Made by a program: the position numbers and the translations under genes | In this document: piece by piece, positions 2,574-63,365 of the stretch | Layout: every line of letters begins with the position of its first letter | Numbering within the stretch: position 1 is the stretch's first letter | The notes under the pieces: model-generated | Seen by the model: the letters and a program-made list of their open reading frames with translations, nothing else | Databases searched by the model: none | Told to the model about the DNA's origin: nothing | Origin: Azolla caroliniana | Taxonomy: Eukaryota; Plantae; Polypodiophyta | Length of the DNA stretch: 64,000 nucleotides | Assembly (NCBI GenBank): GCA_043228905.1 | Contig: JBHGNT010000010.1 | Location: 13,950,001 to 14,014,000, forward strand | Reading direction: 5' to 3'

Positions 2574-4044
2574 TTAAAGAAAATAAGGGTGGCTCTCCAA
2601 GCTCTCCCAATTGTCGCAGGGCATATAGAATTTCTCGGCATCCCACAGGATATAAAACGGATCAAAACCCTCTGCTTTGACATGGTTAGACGCATGGTCG
2701 GTGAAGGGACTGAACTCACAATGGTTATTGGTGGTGAAGTCCACAGTGGAAGAATCACAACTCCTGGGTCCATCCAGACAGCTTGTGACACCTAGCATAT
2801 GCATGTATGTATGTACGTATTTTGTAAGTGTGTCAGTATAAATTATTTATACGTGTGTAGGAATTGATTTTGTGTTTACCTGAATCATGATCAACAGTAA
2901 CAGAAGAGACAGAAGGGGTTGTGTCCTGTGTCATTGGTGGTGGTGGTGGCGGTGGCGGCGGCGGCTGGAGGATGGCAGACGCGTTATTTACCAGCTTGGG
3001 GTACTGAAGCCCATACAGGTAGCTGGCAGTGGCCACAGTCCTCCGGAACACATGGTTCATAACTGTACCGGAAGCAGCAGCAGCAGCAGCAGCGGTGGTG
3101 GTGGTGGTGAAAGCACCGGACGCTGGAGGCAATTGCTGTGATAGAACCAGAGCAGGAGCAGGAGCAGCAGCAGGAGCAGCAGTAGTGGGAGGGGAAGCTG
3201 GCGCTGAGTTATAGAATTCATGCATCTCTTGTTTAGGCATTAGAGCAGGTCCAGTATCGGAATTAGATGTGGTAAGCACAGAATCCCTCATCATTGCCAG
3301 CCCAGACCAGCAGTCAAAGCATCTACACGCCGATGACCCTCCAAGCTCATCCCCGGCATGGCTCCACAAAAGCAGATCAGATTCATCCTTTATACTACTA
3401 CTACTACTAGCCACCTCGTGGTCTGCAGCTGCAGCAGTCATGGCATGGGTGGCAGCGGTTAATCCACGACATGCACACGTGCATGTGCATGAGCAGGAGG
3501 CAGTGGTACCCATAATCCCTGGGGTGGTGCCAATATTTCGGAGATAGGTGAAGTAAGCAGGAAGGCAGTTTTCCATCTTGAACGTGATGTGGTTGTAGAA
3601 GAGGCGGCGATGATGATGATGATGCTTGCGAGGAGTGAAGGAGGAGGCGGCAGCAGCAGCGGCATCATGTTTCTCCTGCATGTTGTTATCGTAACTATAT
3701 TGATCATTATGGTTGGACAATATATTATTATTATCATGTGGGAAGGAAGAGGAAGAGGAAGAGGAGGAGGAGGAAGAAGATGAAGATGGAGGAGGAGGAA
3801 GATGGAGAGGTGGGGTGGAGGAGGAGGAGGAGGAGGAGGGGGAGGGGAGGTGTGGGTGGCGGAGGCGGTGCAGATGGTAGAAACGGCCGTCCTCCCCCTC
3901 CACCAAAAGCTGGACTTGGCAGCCGCACATGGAGGCCAGTTCATGAGCTTTCTTGAAGAGGCCCTTGCATCGTTTCGAAAATGTCTCCTTGCGGTCCTGC
4001 TCCTTCCGCCTCAGTTTGCTCGGGCATACCTTCCGCCGCCCCAT
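2574..4044 (-). CDS. MADS-box transcription factor, type I-like (no K-box); exons 4044-2880 and 2791-2574, ~460 aa
   Basis: The N-terminus MGRRKVCPSKLRRKEQDRKETFSKRCKGLFKKAHELASMCGCQVQLLV is a MADS/SRF domain. An 88-bp intron at 2879-2792 (GTAAAC...CTAG, phase 1) joins it in frame to ORF 2574-2804. The remainder is low-complexity. Confidence 0.88.
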
Positions 4045-4065
4045 ACCTACCACCACAGTCGTCGT

Positions 4066-11600: not shown

Positions 11601-14600
11601 CGAATTGTCACCTTGTTGACAGGTTGAAGATCTTGAATGAATCGCAACGATCCATTCTTCTTTGGCACCATGAACCATCTATTAGAATAAGGAGTGTTCG
11701 ACGGTTCCAAAATTCCCATCCTCACCTTCTCCTTTAAGAGCTCGATCAGCTTCGGTAGGTGTGCTCTCGGAACCTGTATTAGTTTAAATTCCAAGGCACA
11801 TGTGGCACCGTGAAGATCACCATCGGTTCTACCATCCTTGGATTAGCACGTCCGATTTCTTGTGGGAAAAATGTGAAAGCCTTCCCATGTCTTTCAAGCA
11901 TTTCGCAGAACATTTGCTCCTCTTCAGGAAGGAGGAAATCCTCCCTTCCAACTCATAGCTTTCCCTTCGCCTCTTCAGTGAAGACGTGACCAATTGTATT
12001 TGGGTTCCTTAAGCTTGGATCTTTTGCAACTTCCTTCATCTTTTGCCAGCTATCTTCCGATAGTGGAACTGCAACTGGCTTGACCTTCCTATCCACGGTT
12101 TTATATTTTGTGTTGACTTCGGCTTCCTCTATCAAGATGCCTCGATGATATTCATCGATGATAGCATACATGTTGACGGAGTTAATCGAAATCACATGTT
12201 GATGGTGAGGATAGCTCAAGTCCATGACTTCCTCGATTTTGCCGATGGTGTCGTTAAATGAGGCTTCCTCCAGAATATAAGACACGAATTCTTCTTCTTC
12301 GATTATGCTTTCTTCTTTCAGCACCTCCTCGAAGTCTTGTATCAGACACTTTTCCTCCTTGTTGAGTGATCTTAGTTTGCATGCGCCGCTAGGTGTGACG
12401 CATGTTGCTTCTCTTTGCAATCCACGCACTCTGCTTCCTTGTGGGGACTTATGATTGCTCGGACTATTTGTGCCCCATACTTCAATAGTTCACTTTAAAA
12501 ATCTGAGGATTCACCTCCAAGGCTATCTCAGTTCCTTTCGTGATTAGCTCGCACCATTAGGAATTGAACAGATCTTTTACTATCAAGACTCTTGACGCGC
12601 ACGAAGGTTGCTCCATTATCGAACACCTTGGTCTCCATCCGGGACGATGTTATATACGGTTGTCCTAGGATGACAAGATGCGAAGCCGAGTCTTGCACGA
12701 AGAAGTGTTGATCAATCTCCACATCCCCGATCGTGACTTTAACGTTGGGGCAAGCTCCGTACAAGTCCTCCGTAGCCTTCGTCGCCGCTCGAATCTTCCA
12801 TCCGTGGTTTGTATTAATCGGCCATCTTCCTTTCTTGTAGAACTCGGTCAACATGAGGTTAATCTCCGAGCCATGGTCAATCAAGGCTACCACGGTTTCT
12901 TTCTTCTCCCTGATCTTCACCGGCTTCTACGTTGTCGCTCTTGCCCAATGAGGTCGAGAGTAATGGCTATCTGCCACCACTTCTTCTTCCTCCTCCTCTT
13001 CCAATCTTTCCATGGTTATGGCACTTGTTTTCACCTCCTCTTCATCAGATTGTTGCCGCTTCCTTTTAATAAGGTCCACAATAGTATCATGGAACTCCTT
13101 CTTCACGATCCCAAGCAGTTCTCTCAAAGTAAGGTCAACATGACTGTCTAAAACCTTCTCCTCAAGGATCTTCCGCAAGTCAGTTGTTTGTTCTATGTCC
13201 GATCTTAACTTGTAAGTCGGTGCCACTCGTTCTTTTCCTTTCTTCGTTGATTCTTCGACCTCGTTCTTTTCCTTGCTTCTCCTCAAAGCCTTCAGGTTGT
13301 TGCATGTAAATTTCTTCTTCTAGCTCCCCGTGCAGAAATGCGGTTTTGACATCCAACTGTTCAATCTCTAGGTCCAAACTGGCCGCAATGCTAAGAACAG
13401 TTCGAATGGATGTCATCTTCATGACTGGTGCGAATATTTCGTCAAAGTCGACACCCTTCTTCTGTTGGAAACCCTTCACCACTATGCGGGCTTTATACCT
13501 AGGCTTGTTGTCGACTTCTCCAGTCTTCACCTTGTAGACCCATTTATTCCTGAGTGCTCTCTTACCTTTCGACAGCTCTACTAAGTCGTAGGTGTAATTC
13601 ACGTGCAAGGGTTCCATCTCCTCTTGCATCACGCTCAGCCATTTATCTTTGCTCTTGTCGGCAATGGCTTCTTCATAGCACTCCGGTTCACCGTCATCAG
13701 TCAAGAGGACGTATTGATTGGCATATGTAATCGGTGCCTTCCTTTCTTTGAGTGGGTATCTTCGTCCACTCGTTGTTGGCTCCAGTTTGGATGTCTCTGC
13801 CAACTCTTCTCTCTGCTCGGGATTCTGTTCGTCAATCGGCATCTCTAGGTTGGATAACTCCAACTCATATTCATCAATTGACTTCAACAGTTCTACCGAC
13901 TCTGACTCATAGTCTGTCGGTCTTTCCGAGTCGACCGACTCAGATTTGGCTCTGTCAGCCATTTGTCTCCTTATAGCTATCGGTGACGACTCACTTGGCC
14001 TTGTAAAGATTCAAACTCTTGACACGACCATGTTATAATCTAGTATTATGAGTTAACCAAGATATCTAGTACATAGTTATGTATGTAATTGGTCCTTATT
14101 ATTTTGCTAGCATCATGTGCATAGTTGCTCCCTTGTAGTATTTACACTTGGCACATGCATACATACCTACATGCTCTATTGTAGATTCACATGTGTGCAA
14201 CAATTATGCATGCCATGTAGTATAAATAGAGGAGTTCACCTTGAAGGAATTCAAGGTGAACAACACCAGTTATGGAGTCTTTCCTTTAATACTATCTTCT
14301 TTCTTGTCCATTTGGTTATCTTCTTGCTTGTCTCTTGAGCTTATGATCCGTGACACTTTGTTCACCTTCCCATCCTCATAGCTCTTCCCCTCATAAGCCA
14401 TAGCTATGTCCGACTCAACTAGTGAGTTAGGCCAAATAATGGTAGCCTTACGACAACTACAACTTGAAAATGAAGCTCTTCGAAATTCTTTACAAGAACT
14501 TCAAGTCAGTACCTCCCTATCCTCACAACCCCCGAACCCTAGTCTCCCACAACAACCTAGCCTAGAGCCCGATCTTCTACCAACATCTAGCCTAGCTTCG

Positions 14601-17600
14601 TCACAGTTTCTTGAGCCTAAGGTTAGCCTCCCAGAAAAATTTGATGGAACGAGGTCGCGTTTCCGAGGGTTCATCAACCAAGTTCGACTTATCATTCGGC
14701 TACAACCTCAACGTTATGGAGATGGTCTTTGACAAGTCGGCCTTGTGGGCACCCTTCTCTCCGGTCCGGCCCAAGCTTGGTTTGCACCATTGGTAGAAAC
14801 CTCGTCACCTCTATTGGAGAACTTTCCCGCCTTCCTCGCCGAGTTAGAGGCCACATTTGGAGAGACGGACCGACGATGTACAACTCTTAACAAGATTTAT
14901 GCACTCGAACAAGGTTCGCGTGCAGCTTCGGTCTATGCTTTAGAATTTCAACAACTAGCATGTGACGTCAATTGGGATGATCAAGCTTTAGCTGATCACT
15001 TTCAACGCGGCCTTCAAAGCAATGTCAAGAATCTTCTCTTAAACTTTCCGAAGCCCACCTCGTTATCCCAAGTGATTTCACAAGCAATCCATTGTGACAA
15101 TCGTCTTTTCGAATTTCGCCAAGAAGAGCGCCGGACTTGGGTTCCACCTCATTCACTTCCACGCCACGCCCCGGTCATACAACCCCAGGCATCCTCACAC
15201 TCGCCTACTTTGGCAGATGCTCCTATCCCCATGGAAATTGATCAAGCCCGATTTTGGCCATTGACTGATGCTGAACGACAATTTCGGCGGGCTAATGGCT
15301 TGTGCATGTATTGTGGCGCCTCCGGTCATGTCGTTCGCCATTGTCCTAGGAGTACTCGCCCACAATTCCATCGAGCTAACGGACCCCAACATCCGGAAAA
15401 CGACATCATTCGATTGCAGTAGGAGCCATGTAACTGGACATCTCCCGTCGCCCACATTCTCTTGGTTCCATTGCCGGACCATCAGGCAATTTCACATTGG
15501 AGGTATGGCTTTCGTTTAACTCTAGTTCCATTCAGTCTGTTGCTTTACTTGATTCTGGGGCATCTTCTTGCTTCATCGACGTCGCATTTGCCCAAGCACA
15601 TGGCGTACCTATCGTTGGCCTCTCAAAACCTATTCCAGTTCAAGCCATCGACGGGTGCGTCCTCTCGTCAGGTGCAATTACTCAAGCTACAATCCCATTA
15701 GGGCTTCGGGTGGGCTCACACCAGGAGGAGCTCGCCTTTTACCTCATCGCATCTCCTCGATATCCGATTGTCTTAGGACTAACGTTGTCATGATATGGCA
15801 AGACTCGAACCCATGACCTTATACTACATGGGTCGAGCTCTTGACCATTAGACTATACATTGTAATGCATAGAATATTATTTTCATTTATGTTTTATTAT
15901 AGAAAATTGATGTATATTCCAGATTTCTCTGGAACATTCTAGAAACTTCAGGAGTATTCCTTAGAACACTATAAAAGGAGGCACAAGGCATTATTTCGAA
16001 CCAAATCGGTTCAACGCCAGTCTTAAGCCTCCTAGCTATTGTACATTTTCTTCACATAATATATATCTTTTCTTATCATCACTCTCTCTCTCTCTCTCGA
16101 TCTCTCTCTCCCTCCCTCTCACTCACTCTTTCCTTCTCTCGAGAGTTCTTCACCTCTCTTAGTACTAATACTTCTTTTAGTACTAATTCCTTCTCTGTCT
16201 TAGTACTATTCCTGACAGTTTGAACCGATTTGCCTACCTTCTATCTCTCTTATTTCCTACTAATATCTTATTCCTCTTTTCTTTCATCCCATGGCCACTG
16301 TTAGCACTTAAGAATATCAATATGTTTTCTCGGAATTTCAATGCTTGAAAGAGAAGTTCCATGCTTTGGAACAAGAAAACCAACGGTTGCTGGGGGATCT
16401 TCAGCAAATCTCCTTAGAAAAGCAGCAAACGCAACAACAACATGGGGAACTTGCGTTACGCGTGCAACAACTCGAAGCAACCATCGTAGCGATGCAACAA
16501 CAAGGGCCCAAAACACAAGGGATTCATAAAGAACCCAAGATTGGCCTTCCCACGAAGTTCGATGGAACGCGATCGCAGTTTAGAGGGTTCCTTAACCAGG
16601 TACGATTAGTTATTCAAATGCATCCTTCCCGGTATCCCACCGATGCATCACGAGTGGGTTTAGTAGGCACTTTGTTAAGTGGCTCAGCGTTGGCATGGTT
16701 CGCTCCACTATTAGAAAAGGAATCCCCGTTACTCAACAATTTTGAAGAGTTTCTAGGTGAGTTTAAAGCATGTTTCGGAGATACTGACAGCATCAGGACC
16801 GTAATCAACAAAATTCGGCGATTACGCCAAGGTGACCGTCCAGCCTCTGCATATGCTGCAGATTTTCACCTACTCGCCGCCGATATCCCTTGGGATGATC
16901 AAGCGTTGATGGAGCAATTCCGTTATGGTTTACGCAACGATGTCAAGGATTTACTCTTGACCTTCCCCGAAGAGCCAAAGTCCTTAGGAGAAGCAATTAG
17001 TCGCGCGGTGAGATGTGACAACCGCCTCTTTGAGCGACGTTCGAAACGACAACTACAGATGCCGAGGGCAAGATCAGAGCCCACCTACGCCTCAGTGGTA
17101 GCAAGACCTTTTCCGAGGGAGTCATATAATGCTCCTCCAACGAATACTCCGACTCCGATGGAGATTGACACTACACGTCGTTGAGGGCCATTATCCGAAG
17201 AAGAAAAGCAGTGACGCCGTACAAATCGACTATGTCTTTACTGCGGTGGACCAGGACATATTGCAATAAATTGCCCCCATAGGCCAAGAAGACAGGTAAA
17301 CCAAATAGTCGCTAGTTCTAATTGTACTAAACCCGAGCCTATTTCAGTAGGGATATCTGATAGTCCTAATAGTACGAATAGCCCAGATCTAGCAAACAGA
17401 TTTGATGTCCTTAGTCAGTTAGAAGAAGAGTTAAACGACTAAGTCCAGCCAAAATAGGAGCCGTTTGGTTGGACAACCCTAGATCTGTGCAACCCATTAG
17501 TGGTTCCATTCCCTCTAAGCAAGTTAGTGATGTGTTCGTAGCCCAAGTAATAGTTAGTACTAAAAGTACCCCTCCAGTACATGTCCTAGCACCCCTAGAT

Positions 17601-26502: not shown

Positions 26503-29500
26503 TATGGCAAGACTCGAACCCATGACCTTATACTACATGGGTCGAGCTCTTGACCATTAGACTATACATTGTAATACATAGAATATTATTTTCATTTATG
26601 TTTTATTATAGAAAATTGATGTATATTCTAGATTTCTCTGGAACATTCTAGAAACTTCAGGAGTATTCCTTAGAACACTATAAAAGGAGGCACAAGGCAT
26701 TATTTCGAACCAAATCGGTTCAACGCCAGTCTAGTACAATCTAGTACGCATCAAACCGGGGGATGAATGGAAAACCGCATTTCGAACACGGTATGGGCAT
26801 TTCGAATACAAGGTAATGCCTTTTGGTCTTACTAATGCTCCCGTAGTTTTTCAACATATGATGAACGATATATTTCGGGAATATCTTTATCTTTTTGTTG
26901 TCATTTACCTCGATGATATTCTCATTTTCTCGCCAAACATGGAGGAGCACACTCGCCAAGTCCGATTAGTTCTTGCCAAACTTCGCGAGCATGGCCTTTA
27001 TGCCAAAGGCGAGAAATGCGAGTTCGACCGTACCTCGATCGAATTTCTGGGCTACATCATCTCGCCCACTGGCATCACCATGGATATGAAGAAGGTCTCT
27101 GTCATTTAGGCGTGGGCGACTCCAAGGCAACTTAAAGATGTGCAATCCTTCCTCGGCTTCGCGAATTTTTACCGTCGCTTCAATAAGGGGTTTTCCACCC
27201 TAGCACAACCTCTTATCACTCTCACCCATAAAGGCACTCCATTTTTATGGACCTCGGAGGCGCAAAATGCGTTCGACTCACTCAAACACGCATTCATCAC
27301 TGCCCCGGTGCTGCTACATGCCGACCCCACAAAACCCTTCCAAGTCGAAACCGATGCCTCTGACTTTGCCATTGGCACCATCTTATCCCAGGCAGATGAC
27401 AACAACCTAATGCACCCAGTGGCTTACTATTCCCGAAAATTTACGGCATCCGAAATCAATTATCCCATTTACGACAAGGAGCTTGCTGCTATCATTGTTG
27501 CCTTTGAAGAATGGCGACCCTACTTGGCCGGCGCACAACATCGTGTCCAAGTAGTCGTTGATCATAAAAATTTAGTTTATTTTTCCACCACTCGTACTTT
27601 GAATCAAAGGCAGGCCCGTTGGTCGACATTTCTCGCCGATTACGATTTTGAGATCGTATTTCGACCTAGTGGCCAACATGGGAAGGTTGATGCCCTTTCT
27701 CGCCGAGCTGACCTTGCACTCTGCCCTGGGGATGCTGCTTATGCTCAACAATCTAGACGTTTGTTGAAACCCGACCAATTGCATCTTTTTGCCACTTGTA
27801 TGTTGCAGGATGATTCTTTACTCCAACAAATCACTGATGCATCCAAGACCGATGTGTTCGCCAACGAGATTCGAGATAGTCTACAAAACCCCTCCAAGGT
27901 GACCAAAAGGAAGGATCTTGACACCTTCACCATACAAGAGGGTTTGTTGTTAAGAGATCATCTCTTATACGTCCAAGAGGGCCCATGTTGCACCCGGGTG
28001 TTGCGGGAATGCCACGATGACCCACTTGCAGGTCATTTCGGGGTCGCGAAAACCCTCGAGCTAATCTCTCGGGGGTATTGGTGGCCACAACCATGGAAGT
28101 TGATCAAAGAATACATAAAGAGTTGTGAGGTTTGTGCTCGCTCCAAAACCATTCATCATCGGCCATACGGCTTACTACATCCGCTTCCATGTCCTCGTCG
28201 TCCTTGGGCCTCTATCTCTATGGACCTGATAACTGATCTACCCTTGGTCAATAACTATGACTCGGTGTTGGTCGTTGTCGATCAGTTTACGAAGATGGCT
28301 CACTTCACTCCATGCTCCAAAACCATTTCCGAAGAAGGAATGGTGCATCTACTACTCAACAATGTGGTATGCTTGCATGGACTACCCGATGATGTCATCT
28401 CGGATCGCGGACCCCAGTTTGTCTCTCACTTTTGGCAGCGCCTGCTACAAACTTTAGGTATCTTTGTCAAGTTGTCCTCTGCTTATCACCCCCAAATTGA
28501 CAGGCAAACGGAGCGTGTCAACCAAATCCTTGAGCAGTATCTTCGATGCTCGGTTAGTTACCAACAAGGTGATTGGGTCAACTTACTTTCGCTCGTGGAA
28601 TTCGCCTATAATAATTCTCTCCATGCATCGACTAGCGTCACTCCCTTCTTTGCCAACTATGGTTTACATCCTCGCTTCAACATTTCCCTTCCTACCACTT
28701 CCGTGAACCCTTCGGCGGAGGATCATGCCCGCATTTTGGAAGAACTACATCATGATTTATCCTTCGAGCTTAGTCTTGCTAGTGAACGATACAAGAAGCA
28801 GGCTGATCGCCATTGATCTTCCACTCCACACTTTGTCATTGGAGACATGGTCTGGTTGTTACGTTGACACATCTCTACTACTCCTCCATGTGCGAAACTT
28901 GATTACAAGAAGTTGGGACCATTCCGTATCATCGAGTGCATCAATCCCGTCGCCTTCCGGCTCGCCCTTCGATCCCACTTCCGGATTCACGATGTTTTTC
29001 ATGTCTCCCTCCTCGAACCCCATTATGTTTCACAACTCCCAGGACGTCAGGCCCCACCACCACCACTTGTGCAATTGACGACAGGTGAGGAATACGAGGT
29101 CGACCAAATCCTTGACTCGCATTGGCACCATCGACACTTGCAATACCTCGTCCTATGGAGGGGTTACCCCATGTCTGAGGCCACGTGGGAACCATCGGCA
29201 AATTTACAAAATGCCCCAGAGGTCGTCCAAGATTTTCATCACCGATATCCCCACAAACCAGCGGCCGATATGGGAAGGCGACGTAGGAGGGGGGATAATG
29301 TCAAGATTCGAACTCTTGACACGACCATGTTATAATCTAGTATTATGAGTTAACCAAGATATCTAGTACATAGTTATGTATGTAATTAATCCTTATTATT
29401 TTGCTAGCATCATGTGCATAATTGCTGCCTTGTAGTATTTACACTTGGCACATGCATACATACCTACATGCTCTATTGTAGATTCACATGCGTGCAACAA

Positions 29501-37723: not shown

Positions 37724-38214
37724 GAATCAACCCATCATTTTGACGACCGACTCTATGGCCTAGTCTAGGTCACTCGTGTTCTCTCTCTCACAAAATTGGT
37801 CCATGGCCACCGCCATCATATTGGCGAGATCTTTGCCTAGCATCTTTACCTCTCCCTTGTCGCTCTTTCATGTAGGGTTCACCAAATATGTGATGTTATT
37901 CCAACAGAACCATAGGGATGTTGGACAAGGGAGGATGTGAATGAAGGTGGACTTGAACATTAAGGGGATTCCAACATTCGAAGGACTAGAACGCTCACAT
38001 GACTGGAACATTGGCAAGGACTCAAATTTAGACAACATGAATGTTGATGAAGATGTGAATGTAGACAACAATGATCGAAAAGCGATAGTGATCACATGGT
38101 TAAGGGTTTAATGCATGAGATTAGCACGTGATTAATAACATGCACCAAGATTAACATCCAAATCATGCTATTAGGCAAAATGAGTTTATTTTACAAAATG
38201 ATGAGACTCAGTCA

Positions 38215-44700: not shown

Positions 44701-46499
44701 ATCGAATCCTTCATCTTCTTCTTGAACCTCTTCGAGTTCACTAGCCTCATCCTTCGGAATTGGTTCTTTGCCGGGAGTTGGAGTCAGTAGGGAGTACCAT
44801 GATGCCGACTCATCAAACTCAAAATCTTGACTTACTCGTACTTGTTTAGTCTGGGGGTTATAACACTTATACCCCTTTTGTTCATGCGAGTAGTTGACGA
44901 GTATGCACTTCTCTGATCTCGGATCCTGCTTCCTCCGCTTCTCATCCGGTACCAACACATATGCTATGCTACCGAATATCCGAAGGTGTCTCAAATTTTG
45001 CTTCCGCCCAAAATCAACTCATGTGCTGACACCTCGTTCCCGATCCCATTTTGGATGTAGACGGCCTCCATACTGCCTCAGCCCAGTAGAATTTGGGCAT
45101 GCTCTTCTCCTCCAACATTGCGCTTGCCGTGTCGACAATCGATCAGTTCTTTCTTTCGGCCACACCGTTTTGTTCCGGTGTATATCCGCAGCTGAATTCT
45201 CTCTGAATTCCTTTTTGCTGCAGATGACTATTGAACTGGCCGAAAAAGTATTCTTTTCCACCATCTGACCGCAGTCACTTTATCTTCCTCTCCGTTTTGC
45301 TTTCGACTATGCTTTGAAGGTTCTGAAAACAGTCGAAGACTTCTCTTTTCTTCTCGATGAGGTAGATCCACGTGTGCTGGCTGTAGTTGTCGATGAAGGA
45401 GATGAAATATCGACTCCCACCAAGACTAACATTTTGTGCCAGTCCCCATACATCCGAATGGATTAGATTGAGCTTGTTACGGCTCCAGTTTCGTTCGGTG
45501 GGGAATGGAAGCCGGTGTTGCTTCCCAAGTTGGCAGGCTTCACATATTTGGGCCTTCCGGCCAATCCGAACACAACTTGTTTCGATTGCAGATCTTGAAG
45601 CCTCTAAGAGTTGAGGTGGCCAATCCGCTTATGCCAGAGATCGATGTCCAATTCAATCTTCTGTCCTTTGGAAAACATGGCGGTGACGACGTCATTTGTG
45701 TGGAGGATGAACATTCTCCCTTCCCTGCACCCTTGCTCGATTATCCGGCCTTCTTCCTCGATGAAGCACCCAAGCTGTGTAAACCATACCTACATTCCCT
45801 GGTCGACGATTTGTCCGACTGACACCAGGTCCTTTGTGATTGTCGGAACGTGTAGTATGTTCATCAGCTTTCCTTTTTTTCCAACATGGCTTAAAGGGAC
45901 TTCTCCGACATGCACAATCGGGTGAGGGGTGCCGTCTCCGGTGTTGTTCGGTCGACAATAACTATTGTCGACACAGTATAGGATGCACGTTGCTCACCAA
46001 ACGTTCTATCAATGAATTGTGGTTTAGACGAATAGATACTAAACTGGTTGTAAACTTATCAATGTTTAGTAGGCATCGAGATCGCTATTTACGTAATAAG
46101 TTATAACAGAAAGGAAATTGATTGACAGAGTGTTTTGTACACAGAGTTTTCCTAAACTAACTTTATATTACTAAATAAAACGATGTCTCTTTACACTGCC
46201 TTCGGTTCCTTTTATAGGAAACCAGAAGGACTTCCTCATCAAGAAAACATATTGCCAAACATGGCAAGAACTACAAAATCTTTAACTAACTTATAATTTC
46301 AATTTTACTTCGGCCATATGCTGACTCATCGATCCTCTATACTGATCCGACTCCGACTCCGACTCCGAACCTTCTTCATTTCCGACTCCGACACTTCCCC
46401 ACTTGTTCGGGTAACACTTGGCATGTCCGTGGGCCAGGTCTTTGTCCGGCGAACCCCACGGCATCCTTCTATTCCTGTTGTTCCAAAGGAAGGTCCTCA

Positions 46500-49720: not shown

Positions 49721-51449
49721 TGTCAAGATTTGAACTCTTGACATAACCATGTTGTAATCGAGTGTTATGTGTTAACCACACATCTAGCATATAATCATGT
49801 ATATACTTCCTCATTGTAGGTTTTAGCTAGAATCATGTGCATAATTTCTCCCTTGTATTATTAACACTTGGCACATGCATGCGTACCTACTGCCTACATG
49901 CTCTATTGTATCACATGCGTGCAACAGGTATGCATGCCACTTAGTATAAATAGTTGAGTTCACCTTGAAGGAATTCAAGGTGAACAATGCCAGTCATGGT
50001 CATATCAATCTAGTATTCCCATTTCACCCATCCTCTCTCCTTGATCTTCATCTCTATCTTTATGCTCTTGTGTCATTCTGTCATCGCTCCGTCATAGCCT
50101 CATCATCTGTGCTCCGTCTTAGTCCGCACTTGGTGTGTCCGTGACAGTTTGTTCACCTTCCAACTAGAAGCATCACCCGTCTCCGTGATCGCCTTTGCTT
50201 CTAGAGTTACCATCTTCACCGTACCATCATCAACATCGCTTCATTTCCTATCTTCCTCGCCATTTCTATCTCCTAGTTTCTTCTCATAATTTTTATTGGC
50301 TTTTAGTTCTCCTCATCATTGTCTCTATTTTTTAGTTTCTTTCCCGTTCGTGTTCGTGTTCTAGTTCCCGATGAGGGCCGCACAAGGCCGCTCACTCCCA
50401 TTGGTGTTCGTGTTCCAGTTCCCGGTGAGGGCCGCATGGTCGCTCATGCCCATTGCGGCTCATGTTCCAGTTCTCGGTGAGGACCACACATGGTCACTCA
50501 CTCCAACTATTGTTTGTGTTCCGGATCCCGGTGAGGACCGACATGGTTCCTCATGCCCGTTGTTGCTCATGTTCTAGTTCCCGATGAGGACCACACATGG
50601 TCGATTAATCCCGTTTGTGTTCATGTTCCTGCTGAGGGCCACATGGTCGCTCACTCGTTCGTGTTCCATTTCTCGGTGAGGACAACATGGTTGCTCACGC
50701 CCGTTGGTGTTCGTGTTCCAACTCTCAACGAGGACCGTTCCAGTTCCCGACAATGACCCCACATGGTTACTCATGCCCCTTGGTGTTCATGCTCCCCGTG
50801 AGGACTGCACATGGTCGCTCACACCCGTTGATATTTGTGTTCCAGTTCTAGGCGAGGACCACACCTGGTCACTCATGCCCGTTGGTGTTAAATACCTCGT
50901 CTTGTGGAAGGGTTACTCCTTGTCTAGAATTTACAAAATACTTTTGAGGTGATCTAAGATTTTCATCAACAATATCCCCCAAAGTCGACAAACAATTTGG
51001 GATAATGTCAAGATTCGAACTCTTGACATAACCATGTTGTAATCGAGTGTTATGTGTTAACCACGCATCTAGCATATAATCATGTATATACTTCCTCATT
51101 GTAGGTTTTAGCTAGCATCATGTGCATAATTTCTTCCTTGTATTATTAACACTTGGCACATGCATGCGTACCTACTGTCTACATGCTCTATTGTATCACA
51201 TGCGTGCAACAGGTATGCATGCCACTTAGTATAAATAGTTGAGTTCACCTTGAAGGAATTCAAGGTCAACAACGCTAGTCATGGACATATCAATCTAGTA
51301 TTCCCATTTCACCCATCCTCTCTCCTTGATCTTCATCTCTATCTTTATGCTCTTGTGTCATTTCCCGTCTTAAGTTCCTCATGTCATCGCTCCGTCATCG
51401 CTTCATCATCCGTGCTCCGTCTTAGTCTGCGCTTGGTGTGTCCGTGACA
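49721..51449 (+). mobile_element. Non-autonomous (TRIM-like) derivative related to family B; LTRs 49721-50146 and 51006-51449
   Basis: TSD AATAA on both sides. The LTRs share U3/R with B and use the same PBS TTGTTCACCTT. The 860-bp interior has no gag/pol except a chromodomain scrap (KYLVLWKGY). Confidence 0.93.
50345..50890. repeat. ~55-57-bp tandem repeat inside the non-autonomous element
   Basis: GTTGGTGTTCGTGTTCCAGTTCCCGGTGAGGACCACACATGGTCGCTCATGCCC-type units, about 10 copies. Confidence 0.88.
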
Positions 51450-58174: not shown

Positions 58175-58679
58175 GCTGCGACATAAATTAACTGATCAAG
58201 CCGACCGGGTAATTGAGATCCGGCCGAGTGATCGTGAAATAAATTAGGCTTTCGACAATTTGTTGGAACCGTGTTAGGTCGCACGCCTTTCCTTAATCTC
58301 GGCGAAGCTTGACGTTTCTGTCTAGAGGAGTTGAGATGGACTTATAGTTTGCGATCCTGAATTTGAAGAGTATACCCAGCATGTAATGCCGTTGGCTGAT
58401 CAGTATGCCTTTGGGTATGCGGATCACATCGATCCCTCGGAAGTAATGAAGGTCCCCTAGGTCCTTCATGTCGAATGATGCATCGAGTTGGGACTTTACG
58501 CGGCCAATTTCATCTAGGTCCGCGCCGACGAGGACTAAATCATCAACACAAAGTAAAATACTAACCGGTCCATGTTGACCTTGCCGGACTAACAATGAAG
58601 AGTCCAATTTGGACGTCGCAAACCCCATCCGACACAGGCATTGCGTGATCTTCGCATTCCACAGTAGCGTTCCACGTGC
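58175..58679 (-). mobile_element. Copia RT fragment (L), J-like
   Basis: WNAKITQCL..ILLCVDDL..MKDLGDLHYF..TITRPDL. Confidence 0.85.
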
Positions 58680-59314
58680 TGTTGTGAAGATTTTCAACAA
58701 CGGTGTGAAAATAAGATGGAACGGAGAAAATCGAGAAGCTACAATGTGCACACGAATGAATGGGGTGATGGTTACACTTGTACATTAGCATGTTGTAAAT
58801 ATGAATGAAATGAGAACCCCTAAGGCCTAGTAGCATTTTCTTGCATACCAAGGAGTGCAAGTAGGGTTTGAACCTTACACCTCCAAGTTAAGACACAATT
58901 GACTTACCATTAAGCTAAGTTGTTACTTGTACTTTTATCATTGTATTTTTCACATGTAAATGCTCATACATGAGAGCTTGAATGAGTGACATGGTCATCA
59001 TGCATCACATGCGATGCATGAGCACCAAATGGCAATCATGCATTGCATGCATCTCATGGATTGTATGCATGTCTTACACCCTCACATGCATCATATGCAT
59101 GGGGGCATCTATACAAGAAAGAAAGGAAGGGAAAAAGGGGGGTGATCAATCTATGCATCAATCAAGCTATGTATTGAATCAACATCTTAATATTAAAAAA
59201 CCTATTTATCTTATTTGTGACTTGTCTAGTTTCTCAACATTGATGTCAAGGGTTCAAACCCGGAAGTGGAATTTCCATCCATCTATCTATCTATCTTAAA
59301 CACTTCCTCAATTC

Positions 59315-59362
<48 letters not shown>

Positions 59363-60974
59363 GCCACATTAGTGCGTAATTTTGGCTACTACAATTTCAT
59401 TTCGTGTGATCGTTCACTCTATCTCTGGAATTCTCATCAAGAAGGAAATAGCACCGGCAAAGATCATTTCACCATCGTCGTCGCCTGCTGAATGTTGCAC
59501 ACAACCACATTACTGCCGCCTACACATCAATCCACCAAAGAACAACCCGACAATAAACCTAAAACGGCTAATTTGTCTGCTCCATAACCACTAGCGGATA
59601 GAGGCCAGATGCTTATCCGCGCCTGTGTGACACGCACATTGTGACTTTTGGCACGTCTGTCACGCGCCACACGACATCTATTTGGTGAACCCGACATGAA
59701 CAACACAAGGTGGTAATGGAGGCAATGCGAATGATGGATGTGGTCTTGCTTGCTTACAACTTAGAGCAGTCGATTAGAATAGAAGGTGGTGCAAGGTTCG
59801 TAATCCTTCTATTTGTAAGGAAGGCCATCAAAATGTTGTTGCGTGAAGATAAGGATAGAGCGATGGAGTATCTCAAGCTGGCAAGGAAAGTCAAAAGACT
59901 ATATCAAGAAGTTCCGGATTGGTACGAAGTGGTTACGACGTCAAGATTCGGGCCTCAACCTTTTTATGGTTTACTCAACAATGACGAAGATGAAGATGAT
60001 CGAGATGATTGTGATTATTGTCATAAAGAGACTTTCAATGTAGAATGTGGGCTCGTAAGGAAAGATGGAGATATTCGAGGATGCGGTTGTGAAGAGAGAC
60101 ACGATGAAAAACGTGGGCTCAAGAGGGAAGATCAAGATATTCGAGGATGTGATCATGAAGAGACATACGACAAAGAATGTGGGATCAAGACAAAAGATCA
60201 AGATATTTGAGGATGTGATAGTGAAGAGACATGCGATGAAGAACAAGGGCTCAAAACGGAAGAACGAGATATTCAAGGATGCGGTCATGAAGAAGAACGT
60301 GGGCTTGACAAGACAGATCGACATGCCTATGGTCATTACGAGGATTGTTGCAAACTCGACAAAAGAAAAACATGTGACGAAGAACACGATCTTGAAGGGA
60401 GAGATTGTGATTGTCATCATGAAGATCATTGCAAACTGAAGAGAAGAGAGAGATGCACTGAAGAAGGATACAATAATGAAGAGAGATGCGATGAAGAATG
60501 TGGGCTCAAGAGGGAAGATCGAGAAGGATGCGATCATGAAGAGACATGCAGTGATGAAAGTGGGCTAGAGGGGAAAGACCAAGATACTCAAGGATGTAGT
60601 CATGAAGAAACATGTGACAAAGAACATGGGCTTGAGGAGAAAGATCAAGATCTACACGGTTATGATAAAGACAAAGATCATTACAAACTCACAAAGAGAG
60701 CTCGAGATCTACAAGGTTATGATCATGACAAAGATTACTATAAACTCAAGAGGAGAAATCAAGGTTGAGCTCTTCATGGTTGTGCTACACTCGAAAGTCG
60801 TGATGGTGAGAGAAGTTGGAATCTAGACTCTCATGGTTTAAATTGTGATGATGAGTCTCATAGGTTTAATGAAGGCCTCAAACAAGAGGAGAAGTTAGAC
60901 AGAGATGAAAACTTTACATTTAAACGTGATGACAGTGACGATAATAACGATAAACATGATTTAGGGCTTGATGA
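58680..60974 (+). mobile_element. LTR element O: 5' LTR 58680-59676, tRNA-Trp-like PBS, repeat-rich first ORF, interrupted by H
   Basis: Termini TGTTGTG...CACGACA. TGGTGAACCCGACATGA at 59683-59699 resembles the complement of the tRNA-Trp 3' end. It interrupts RT fragment L at 58679. Confidence 0.7.
59716..60974 (+). pseudogene. ~420-codon reading frame with 20-aa Cys/His/Asp/Glu-rich repeats and two in-frame TGA
   Basis: The frame is continuous except for TGA at 60208 and 60766. The unit is approximately RGCDHEETCDEERGLKREDQDI with 60-nt periodicity. Confidence 0.65.
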
Positions 60975-63365
60975 TGTAGAGAAAAGTGCGGAATATAGCT
61001 CGGCCACAACCGAGTAATGAATCACTTCAATGAGAATCAAACACAGAAATGGGAAATGGGGAGATAACGCACGTACCCACACAGACAATAGAGAGTACAC
61101 AGGATGTTTACGTGGAAAACCCTAATAGGGAAAAACGATGGGAGCCCACAGACTCCAAACTATCACTATATAGGAAAAGGTACAAATAGAGACTCAGAGG
61201 CAACGACCTCGAGCTCTATATCTTCACCAGCCGGCTGTTACAACAGAGTATCGCTCTGTATCTCTCTCTCACTCACACACTCTTCCTCTCTCTCTATACA
61301 ACAGTTATACATACAACAATATGACAACATTTGTGTGCATTAAAGTGTTTGCCCTAAGTCATATTTATACTTATATGAACTTAGGGCTATTTACAAATAT
61401 AGCCTCAATAGGCTTACTCAAAACATATTTACAAATATATCTTCTCTTCCAGTTCTCACCGGGTTCCATCGGGTCCTCTTCATTCAACATCGGATCCCAT
61501 CCGGAGGGACCGATTTCCCAACAATCTCCCCCTTCACTCCGGCATGGGATGTCTCGCCAGCCCGATCCGCTTTCGGCATGCATCCAGCTTGTCGGTTGTA
61601 AACACCTTGGTTAGTTAGCATATCCGACTCGTTCTCCTTCGTGTGGATCTTCATCAGCATGAACTCTTGATCTTCTACTCTCGCCCGGATCCAGTGGTAC
61701 CTCCGCTGGATCTGTTTCGTCCGGGAATGGTAGGCCACGTTCTTTGCAAGGTGGATGGCACTTTGATTGTCGTAGTAGAGCCAATATTCCTCCTATTGGA
61801 TCCTTAGCTCTCCGATGAAGTCCTTCATCCATATTATCTCCTTATCGGCTTCTACAGTTGCCATGTACTCTGACTCCGTGGTTGACAACGCAACCATCTT
61901 CTGCAACCTCGACTACTATGATACAGCTCCCCCTCCATAAGTCATGACATATCCGGATGTAGATTGGCTGGTATCCGCATTAGCCGACATATCTGAATCC
62001 GTGAATCCGTCAAGTTGGGGATTACCGGAGCTGAACCGGAGGCACATACTCGAGGTGCCTTCAGATACTAGAGTATTCACTTGACCATGTTCTAGTGCTC
62101 TTTTCCAGAATTGCTCATGAACCGGCTTACCACTTCGACTGCATATCCAATATCCGGCTCGGTACATACCATCACGTACATCAAGCTTTCGACGGTAAAG
62201 GCATATGGTATCTTCATCATATCCGTCTTCTTGGCCTTTGTCTTAGGGCTTTGCTTTCCGGACAACTTACAATTTGCCGGAAGTGTCGATCCGATCAATT
62301 TCGCCTCCGACATGTTGAACCGTTGAAGCACCTTTGTCACGTACTTCTCCTGTGACAACCACAATAGCTTCTTCAACCGATCCCGGATGATGTGCATTCC
62401 CAATATCTATCTTGCCAGACCCAAGTCTTTCATTGAGAAGGTTCGGTTCAGAGCCTTCTTCAGCATCCGAATCTTGCCTTGGTCTCGTCCGACGATGAAC
62501 ATATCATCCACATATAGGAGGAGTATTAGGAAATCTCCTCCGTCAAATTTCTTCACAAACATGCAATGATCAGCTTGCATTTTGTGGTATCCTTGGTCGA
62601 TCATGAAGGAGTCAAACTTCCGGTACCATTGCCAGGGGGCTTGCTTCAATCCATATAAGCTCTTCTTTACTCGGCACACCAAGTGCTCCTTCCCTTTCTT
62701 CTCAAATCCTTCCAGTTGATGCATGTAGATCTCTTCTTCGAGATCGCCATGTAGGAACGCCATCTTGATGTCCAGTTGCTCTACCTCGAGGTCCACGCTT
62801 GCCACTACTCCCAATACCGTCCGGATGGATGTCATCTTTACTACCGGGCAAAGATCTCATCAAAATCCACTCCTTTCTTCTGGTGGAACCCCTTCACCAC
62901 GATCCGAGCTTTGTATCTCGGTGGGTTTCCGGGATCTCCCAGTCAGCTTGTACACACACTTGTTCCGAAGTTCTCTCTTCCCTTTTGGCAACTTCGGCAG
63001 TTCATATGTGTGGTTCTCATGTAGGGAATCCATCTCGTCTTGCATGGCACTCAACCACTTGCGGCTGTGGGTGTCTCTCTTTGCTTCTTCGAAGCTTTCC
63101 GGCTCCCCATCATCGGTTAGCAACACGTGCTCTGCATCTGAAAATCTCCGGGGGTCTCTTCTCTGTCTGAGAGGATATCTCCGTGCTTGGTTTTTGATTA
63201 CCGGTTCCTCTGTTTGTTCCGAATCTGAATCCGATTCGAGATCTTGTCCGGTTCCATTGTCTTCTTCTTCTTCTTCTTCAGTCCGTTCGGTTTCTTGTCC
63301 GTATCTGGCCGGTTCGTCGAGTGTCATCCGGTTGCTGGCCAACATCCGGTTTTCAACCGGGTAGG
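60975..63365 (-). mobile_element. 3' part of Copia element H (RT-RNaseH, PPT, 3' LTR 60975-61523), 5'-truncated
   Basis: RT/RNase H closely match element D, the PPT is at 61524-61536, and the LTR matches solo LTR G. Confidence 0.92.

What the first reader, a model, noticed from the sequence alone, without database searches (positions are those of the whole stretch)
58861..58920. Second, unrelated LTR family (O) with the same antisense A/B-box architecture
Seen: the minus strand has TAGCTTAATGG(TAAG) at 58917-58907 and GGTTCAAACCC at 58874-58864, 43 nt apart, with a residual T-arm GTA(A)GG-TTCAAAC-CCTAC. A second B-box GGTTCAAACCC lies on the plus strand at 59251-59261. The sequence differs from the C cassette. 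Inference: independent capture or long-term retention, suggesting a shared function for tRNA-like modules in these LTRs.
Basis: partly seen in the sequence, partly recalled or inferred. Interest (0 to 1): 0.7.

Follow-up and report, generated by a model that had tools for sequence, protein, structure and literature searches.

The report
Twin tRNA relics flank LTR promoter
A family of plant jumping genes carries two back-to-back tRNA-like promoter relics, one on each side of its own start signal, and these likely serve as landing sites for a host factor that would keep the element's promoter open, an arrangement unlike the single forward-facing tRNA piece of the known Helenus elements.

Summary
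The motifs are at the stated places and beyond chance. They lie in U3 of a 997-bp plus-strand 5' LTR (58680-59676) of a Phygy-like Ty3/gypsy element, so 'antisense' is right. The module is not a private SINE: 8 of 11 independently anchored copies carry it complete at 43-nt spacing, 2 keep only the A half, 1 lacks it.

The 'lone' second B box is the end of a second, decayed, sense tRNA-like module 141 nt past the TATA box. The two modules point outward and bracket the Pol II promoter. A published extended B-box motif hits 6 sites in the window (0.18 expected), all in gypsy LTRs: O, C and B/B2.

The spacer differs from C's, but one O subfamily has a C-like module, so 'unrelated' holds only partly. 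B boxes are better kept than A boxes; no cloverleaf or fixed terminator is seen. Best reading, inferred and untested: TFIIIC binding sites that shield the promoter (0.42). Neutral hitch-hiking is the main rival (0.3).

tRNA-bearing LTRs are known (Helenus), and the scan's index lists 240 Helenus-worded notes in at least 29 genomes; none of the notes shown had this layout.

The parts
58680..59676 (+). 5' LTR of element O (997 bp, TGTTG...CGACA), Phygy-like Ty3/gypsy
   Evidence: Left end aligns with LTR starts in L004, L006, L008; right end CGACA is followed by the same PBS as in L001 and L006
58676..58679 (+). Left junction 4-mer GTGC, read as an NCGN target site after CpG decay (inferred)
   Evidence: 7 of 8 host junctions in the loci are NCGN, against an NCGN frequency of 0.039 in the window
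58864..58917 (-). Module O1: antisense tRNA-like A box (58917-58907), 32-nt spacer, B box (58874-58864), in U3, A box 193 nt upstream of the TATA-like box
58960..59105 (+). CATG/RY-rich block of U3, the best-conserved long stretch of the LTR family (likely Pol II enhancer region)
   Evidence: (column identity 0.82-0.85)
59110..59117 (+). TATA-like box (TATACAAG here; TATATAAG, TATAAAAG or TATAAAAA in all 11 loci)
59207..59261 (+). Module O2: sense, decayed tRNA-like module; A-box-like 12-mer at 59207, B box at 59251 (44 nt), matching the extended B-box motif from 59245
59683..59699 (+). Primer-binding site TGGTGAACCCGACATGA; assignment to tRNA-Trp is recalled, not checked against a tRNA library
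   Evidence: same motif after the 5' LTR in L001 and L006
59716..60768 (+). Internal ORF of O with acidic 22-residue repeats, broken by a stop at 60208-60210; no Pfam family at cut-off; not similar to the L006 gag-like ORF. The element is cut by a Copia insertion at 60975; no pol or 3' LTR of O in the window
58183..58661 (-). Copia reverse-transcriptase fragment into which O inserted (host site)
   Evidence: Pfam RVT_2; other copies continue as RT beyond 58661 (loose ends)
15801..15855 (-). Module in chromovirus LTR C (5' LTR), antisense, at the LTR start; A-B spacing 44
26510..26564 (-). Same module in the 3' LTR of C
29305..29320 (-). Extended B box at the start of chromovirus LTR B (also 49727-49742 and 51012-51027 in the related B2; decayed at 14002); no convincing A box
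   Evidence: A+B score not above shuffles

Best explanation
Element O is a Phygy-like Ty3/gypsy retrotransposon whose LTR carries two outward-facing tRNA-like A/B-box modules, one on each side of its TATA box, which are likely kept as DNA binding sites for TFIIIC that would shield the Pol II promoter between them from silencing. Steps. (1) Shown: the modules are family features at fixed spacing (43 and 44 nt), without cloverleaf, poly(A) tail or shared TSD. (2) Inferred: an ancestral LTR captured a tRNA- or SINE-derived head, and a second related copy came to lie in the opposite orientation; LTR copying during reverse transcription spread both. (3) Shown, modestly: box positions, mainly the B box, are better kept than spacer or AT-rich flanks, and one subfamily has a different spacer between boxes at unchanged spacing. 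(4) Inferred from yeast ETC/IR sites: B-box-dominated sites bind TFIIIC without needing Pol III transcription and act as barriers or insulators. (5) Inferred: genomic RNA is still made by Pol II from the TATA box; O1 lies upstream and points away, so it cannot make it.
For: Family status: 8 of 11 loci found with an anchor outside the module carry complete O1 at 43 nt; these fall into 5 sequence groups. Contigs of 4 runs with 4 coded organism labels cover O1 (173, 122, 72, 88 records); all 6 listed variant sites are in the spacer. Constraint: column identity at defined B-box positions 0.92, A-box 0.80, degenerate box positions 0.66, spacer 0.68 across 6 copies (P 0.006); without L003 0.95, 0.84, 0.67, 0.82 (P 0.08). 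A-to-B spacing is 43 in the window and all 8 complete loci, while A-to-TATA distance runs 163-206 nt and TATA-to-B2 113-141 nt. L003 keeps the boxes (17/22 identical to the window) around a spacer only 12/32 identical. O2: GGTTCA is kept in 8 of 11 loci and in the window; offset 44 gives the best summed A-box score of 116 offsets; O1 and O2 spacers resemble each other (z up to 4.7). The motif GTCnnnnGTTCRAnYC (PMC3159450) has 6 hits in the window against 0.18 expected (maximum 2 in 300 shuffles), all in gypsy LTRs, none in 3.8 kb of Copia LTR. Against an RNA product: no ARAGORN or Rfam tRNA hit, T4 runs inside the module in L002 and L003, first T4 after the B box at 32-210 nt. Yeast precedent for B-box-only barriers: PMC3395662 passages.
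Against: No binding, chromatin or expression data were obtained. L004 lacks O1, L009 and L007 keep only its A half, and L001/L005 have a decayed O2, so neither module is universal. A-box invariants are changed in L002/L006, L008/L011 and L003, and the B-box C is changed in L010. A-box conservation (0.80-0.84) is no higher than that of the RY block (0.82-0.85), and the test loses significance without L003. One search is biased: contigs had to be 80% alike, and A-box variants appear as loose ends rather than listed differences (all 10 loci with an A box differ from the window at 58910, which one search does not list). Only 2 of 11 LTR families in the window have a significant A+B pair, and the plain core B box is only weakly enriched (16 against 8.8, shuffle maximum 18). 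I had noticed the GTC pattern before reading the published motif, which comes from Dictyostelium tRNA genes. O1 itself does not match that extended motif. [quoted passage not shown]
Confidence: 0.42

Rival explanations
1. Neutral passengers: old SINE or tRNA fragments landed in an ancestral LTR and are copied with it, decaying like the rest of U3; recurrence in several families reflects an abundance of tRNA-derived sequence in this lineage.
For: Module loss or damage in several copies (L004, L007, L009 for O1; L001/L005 for O2). A-box conservation equals the RY background; P 0.08 without L003. Kojima 2024 notes that 'not a few' Repbase LTRs hold tRNA-like parts. A weak O1-like stretch also lies at 39209-39151.
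Against: Invariant 43-nt spacing amid indel-rich flanks; boxes kept around a replaced spacer in L003; extended B boxes confined to gypsy LTRs of three families, at the very start of two.
Confidence: 0.3
2. O1 is a working Pol III gene that makes a short antisense RNA over U3, tuning the element's own promoter by interference or small RNAs, like the Pol III units in foamy-virus LTRs.
For: Full-consensus A and B boxes in the window and L001/L005 (score 27.9); AT-rich sequence upstream; Pol III units inside LTRs are known in foamy viruses (PMC3993851 passages).
Against: No fixed terminator, T4 runs inside two modules, A-box invariants changed in three sequence groups, no conserved fold beyond a bulged T-arm.
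Confidence: 0.15
3. The sense module O2 acts in the RNA (5' leader or R region), for example in packaging, dimerisation or template switching onto tRNAs, and O1 is a by-product of an inverted duplication.
For: O2 lies 113-141 nt past the TATA box and would be transcribed; its B-box end is well kept while its A box is decayed; the replaced spacer in L003 could come from a template switch (inferred).
Against: No conserved pairing partner for the O2 T-arm is seen in the aligned copies (read); the C and B motifs are antisense at the LTR start, outside a Pol II transcript's 5' end.
Confidence: 0.09
4. A Helenus-type Pol III promoter that transcribes the element, or a chance match, or a private SINE insertion.
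For: An 8-bp direct repeat flanks O1 in the window copy.
Against: That repeat is at chance level (P 0.08) and absent from the 6 loci tested; no A or T run of 6 or more within 250 nt downstream; O1 faces away from the element, which has a TATA box and a 2.2-kb coding interior in L006; 0 of 300 shuffles reach the score.
Confidence: 0.04

Closest known systems
Helenus / TRIMp3 (Kojima 2024, PMC10886601; parts 1-4 of 6 of the text, passages and one supplement passage read), incl. Helenus-1_SMo of Selaginella
   Same: tRNA-derived A and B boxes inside LTRs, conserved boxes, usually no functional tRNA, proposed origin by SINE insertion into an LTR
   Different: Helenus elements are 311-1263 bp and non-coding, and the module is proposed as their promoter; the LTRs seen in the supplement passage carry one sense module in a short LTR. 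O has 0.8-1 kb LTRs with a TATA box, a coding interior, an antisense module in U3 and a second decayed sense module; C is a coding chromovirus.
Phygy clade, non-chromovirus Ty3/gypsy (Neumann et al. 2019, PMC6317226; passages and supplement row read)
   Same: NCGN junction 4-mers; PBS read as tRNA-Trp type (81% of Phygy); TG...CA LTRs; PPT in L006
   Different: No RT was available to place O by phylogeny; the copies seen are short or gag-only (Phygy average 8.6 kb); the passages read report no tRNA-like LTR modules
ETC sites and S. pombe IR/COC boundary elements (PMC3395662, passages read)
   Same: B-box-dominated sites that bind TFIIIC without Pol III and insulate Pol II promoters; the functional model proposed here
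   Different: Host chromosomal sites in yeasts and mammals, not parts of a mobile LTR; not described in plants according to PMC13578239; binding untested here
Foamy-virus LTR Pol III miRNA units (PMC3993851, passages read)
   Same: A/B-box Pol III units inside an LTR that is otherwise read by Pol II
   Different: Those make defined hairpin RNAs with terminators; O modules have no fixed terminator or conserved hairpin and are tRNA-like in register
Cassandra and Ajax TRIMs (as described in PMC10886601)
   Same: Small-RNA-derived Pol III promoter in plant or animal LTRs
   Different: 5S-derived, short non-autonomous elements

Membership tests
Helenus (TRIMp3) | tRNA-derived A and B boxes within the LTR | tested here: met
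Helenus (TRIMp3) | Short non-coding TRIM (311-1263 bp in total) | tested here: not met
   LTR alone 814-997 bp; L006 interior about 2.2 kb with a 694-aa ORF
Helenus (TRIMp3) | Module oriented so that Pol III could transcribe the element | tested here: not met
   O1 is antisense in U3; O2 is sense but has a decayed A box and lies before a multi-kb interior
Phygy (non-chromovirus Ty3/gypsy) | 4-bp TSD with NCGN preference | tested here: inconclusive
   7 of 8 host junction 4-mers in the loci are NCGN; the eighth (ATGG) and the window's (GTGC) fit CpG decay; the one copy with both ends (L008) has unequal 4-mers, so no TSD pair was shown
Phygy (non-chromovirus Ty3/gypsy) | PBS complementary to tRNA-Trp | tested here: inconclusive
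   Conserved PBS in window, L001, L006; its match to tRNA-Trp is recalled, no plant tRNA library was available
Phygy (non-chromovirus Ty3/gypsy) | RT-RH-INT phylogeny | not testable with these tools
   No pol linked to an O LTR in the window or in the 11 loci; one gag-like homologue carries PF13352
tRNA-derived SINE insertion | TSD and poly(A)/simple-repeat tail flanking the head | tested here: not met
   one chance-level 8-bp repeat in the window only, no tail
tRNA gene | Cloverleaf, ARAGORN or Rfam RF00005 match | tested here: not met
ETC/TFIIIC barrier site | TFIIIC bound without Pol III; barrier or insulator activity | not testable with these tools
   Needs ChIP and reporter assays; only sequence conservation was tested

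The most novel reading that the evidence does not exclude
Several gypsy lineages of a non-seed plant (Phygy-like and Tcn1-like) have separately recruited, and exchange, tRNA-derived TFIIIC sites as portable chromatin barriers that bracket their Pol II LTR promoters. This would be the first Pol III-factor barrier in plants and an anti-silencing device carried by the transposon itself.
Probability: 0.25. Interest if true: 0.8.

Novelty: new variant of a known kind. Interest (0 to 1): 0.52.

Why it matters
[quoted passage not shown] LTRs that carry such sites on both sides of their promoter, in many natural variants with and without the modules, give a direct test, in reporters and by comparing subfamilies. 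If functional, thousands of dispersed LTR copies would also seed TFIIIC sites across the host genome. If neutral, the finding still extends tRNA-bearing LTRs from miniature elements to long-LTR coding gypsy families.

Tried and rejected
No genome is held for this window, so no genome-wide LTR scan was possible. A self-search found no second O copy in the window. ARAGORN and Rfam found no tRNA in the window or the loci (with 10 of 11 loci, 33 with all 11). Viral contigs gave 0 hits for two patterns and no relative of the L006 ORF; prokaryote genome contigs gave 0 hits. No RNA holder was listed; this says nothing about expression. The ESM Atlas search did not run. My first guess of a 560-bp LTR ending at 59240, and the idea that the purine run at 59115-59142 is a PPT, were rejected when other copies showed a TATA box there and an LTR running to 59676. 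A minus-strand LTR, which would make the module sense, was rejected by PBS and PPT positions. My first guess of a fern host rested on one 49% MADS hit; the Phygy-like and Tcn1-like elements point to a moss or club-moss, and the host is unresolved. Summed contig depth is far higher over the RY block than over O1, but depth is no copy number, so I drew nothing from it. A tRNA isotype was not assigned: a CTT triplet sits in anticodon register in L001, L005, L006, L011 and the window, but other copies differ. The B/B2 and P families do not score above shuffles for an A+B pair. Literature: 9 searches listed no paper on this layout; Repbase itself and subscription journals could not be searched.

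Full report
Observation. The A box (58917-58907), B box (58874-58864, 43 nt apart, minus strand) and second B box (59251-59261, plus strand) are as described. The strict pair occurs once in 64 kb and in 0 of 100 shuffles. A consensus score built from recalled A/B-box motifs gives it the maximum, 27.9; 0 of 300 shuffles of the LTR reach it. The window is a nest of plant Copia and Ty3/gypsy elements. It holds no second copy of O, and no whole genome is held.

What O is. A 24-nt anchor taken from the CATG-rich block, outside the module, found 11 metagenome loci, which align to the window at 75-82%. They define a plus-strand LTR that starts at 58680, has a TATA box at 59110 (TATA[TA]AA[GA] in all 11 loci) and ends at 59676, followed by a primer-binding site at 59683 that L001 and L006 also have after their 5' LTRs. 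L006 holds a near-complete short copy with a 694-aa ORF, a purine tract and a 3' LTR. Of 8 host junctions in the loci, 7 are NCGN; the other and the window's fit CpG decay. Neumann et al. list a 4-bp NCGN TSD and an 81% tRNA-Trp PBS for the moss clade Phygy. The Trp reading of this PBS is recalled, no TSD pair was seen (L008 has unequal ends) and no pol was found, so O is Phygy-like, not a proven member. In the window O inserted into a Copia RT fragment and is cut at 60975 by another Copia; its ORF is unlike that of L006.

Module O1 is a family feature. It is complete at 43-nt spacing in 8 of 11 loci (L001, L002, L003, L005, L006, L008, L010, L011), which form 5 sequence groups. L007 and L009 keep only the A half and L004 lacks it. 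Contigs of 4 runs with 4 coded organism labels cover it. There is no tail, and the single 8-bp flanking repeat in the window is at chance level and absent from 6 loci tested. It is not a tRNA gene and does not fold as a cloverleaf.

A second module. The plus-strand B box is kept as GGTTCA in 8 of 11 loci, with one mismatch in L007 and decayed in L001/L005. An A-box-like 12-mer sits 44 nt upstream. Offset 44 has the best summed A score of 116 offsets over 6 copies (18.6, next 11.6), and four of those copies score 5.0, a level reached by 0.5% of LTR positions; the window copy scores only 1.2 and L007 -2.6. In the window, L002, L007, L008, L010 and L011 a Y-T-N-N-N-A-A heptamer lies in anticodon-loop register; L003, L004 and L009 do not show it. 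O1 and O2 spacers are alike beyond shuffles (z up to 4.7), though part of this may be general tRNA character and many pairs were tested. The LTR thus reads: antisense module, CATG block, TATA, sense module, with both modules pointing outward.

Relation to C and other LTRs. C (15786, 26495), a chromodomain gypsy, has an antisense module at its LTR start (score 24.1). Its spacer is unrelated to the window's O1 (z -0.1) but resembles that of L003 (z 3.3; 19/22 over the B box and the 11 nt before it) and some O2 copies (z up to 4.2). Only C and O, 2 of 11 LTR families, have a significant A+B pair. The published extended B-box motif GTCnnnnGTTCRAnYC (PMC3159450) hits 6 sites: O2, both C LTRs, and three B/B2 LTR starts; 0.18 are expected and 0 of 300 shuffles reach 3. 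The six are 3 to 4 independent families, all gypsy. I had noticed the GTC pattern before reading the motif, and the shorter core B box is only weakly enriched (16 against 8.8).

Constraint. Over 6 copies, defined B-box positions have column identity 0.92, defined A-box positions 0.80, degenerate box positions 0.66 and the spacer 0.68 (P 0.006). Without L003 the values are 0.95, 0.84, 0.67 and 0.82 (P 0.08). The RY block is at 0.82-0.85, though loci were selected by an anchor next to it. Module spacing is invariant where flanking distances vary by tens of bases, but those flanks are repeat-rich. One search lists 6 variant sites, all in the spacer; this is biased, because A-box variants show up as loose ends. 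Several groups have changed A-box invariants, T4 runs fall inside two modules, and terminator distance varies from 32 to 210 nt. The pattern, B kept better than A and no RNA signature, fits a DNA-level TFIIIC site better than a Pol III transcript, but the sample is small.

Mechanism. Most likely (0.42): captured tRNA/SINE heads are retained as TFIIIC sites that bracket the Pol II promoter and protect it, as B-box sites do in yeast (PMC3395662). Presence, orientation and conservation are shown; capture, binding and barrier action are inferred. Rivals: neutral passengers (0.3), antisense Pol III RNA as in foamy-virus LTRs (0.15), an RNA-level role of O2 (0.09), and a Helenus-type promoter, chance or private SINE (0.04).

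Comparison and novelty. tRNA-derived boxes in LTRs are known from Helenus, which are short non-coding TRIMs; the LTRs I saw in its supplement carry one sense module. That paper also says many Repbase LTRs hold tRNA-like parts, without analysing them. O fails the Helenus size and orientation tests. Passages of PMC13570524, PMC2864245 and PMC13578239 and 9 literature searches showed no antisense or paired modules in long gypsy LTRs. The scan's index showed Helenus-type notes from other genomes and, in this genome, notes on a different tRNA feature, but none on this layout among those displayed. Verdict: real, a new variant of a known kind, function plausible but untested; interest 0.52.

Noticed in passing
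window 14002, 29299, 49720, 51005: Chromovirus B/B2 LTRs begin with a short hairpin that is an antisense extended B box, 15/17 identical to the O2 B-box region; a weak A-box-like stretch lies about 50 nt away.
   Followed up: partly
window 39209-39151, minus strand: A weak tRNA-like module resembling O1 of L001 (spacer z 3.8) lies upstream of a TATA-like box of a second element with the same PBS type (PBS near 37888). It is in sense orientation, with 48-nt spacing, and does not score above shuffles.
   Followed up: partly
L003:1620-1760 (oriented to the LTR): This O subfamily has a short U3, a C-like module, and an LTR start (TGTCATGA) identical to the first 8 nt of C, which hints at module exchange between gypsy lineages.
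   Followed up: partly
L003, about 2400-2460 (oriented to the LTR): Another antisense A/B-box-like stretch lies just past the O LTR, in a different sequence; read by eye, below the scan threshold.
   Followed up: no
window 16218-16232 and 14357-14370: C and B have no tRNA-type PBS; the sequence after the 5' LTR is complementary to a stretch inside the LTR (13 and 11 nt, read), as expected for self-priming Tcn1-type chromoviruses.
   Followed up: partly
window 46417-46440: The minus-strand gypsy M has no purine tract before its 3' LTR; a TGG-starting motif lies 2 nt outside it, like the inverted tRNA site noted in other windows of this genome.
   Followed up: no
window 2833-4065, minus strand: 410-codon open frame with an SRF-TF (MADS) domain amid the repeats; nearest named relative 49% identical.
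   Followed up: partly
window 58654-58675: A 9-bp near-duplication in the Copia RT fragment next to the O insertion point (read).
   Followed up: no
window 59716-60768: The O ORF has an N-terminal helical-looking part and acidic, cysteine-containing 22-residue repeats (66-nt period), with no family hit.
   Followed up: partly
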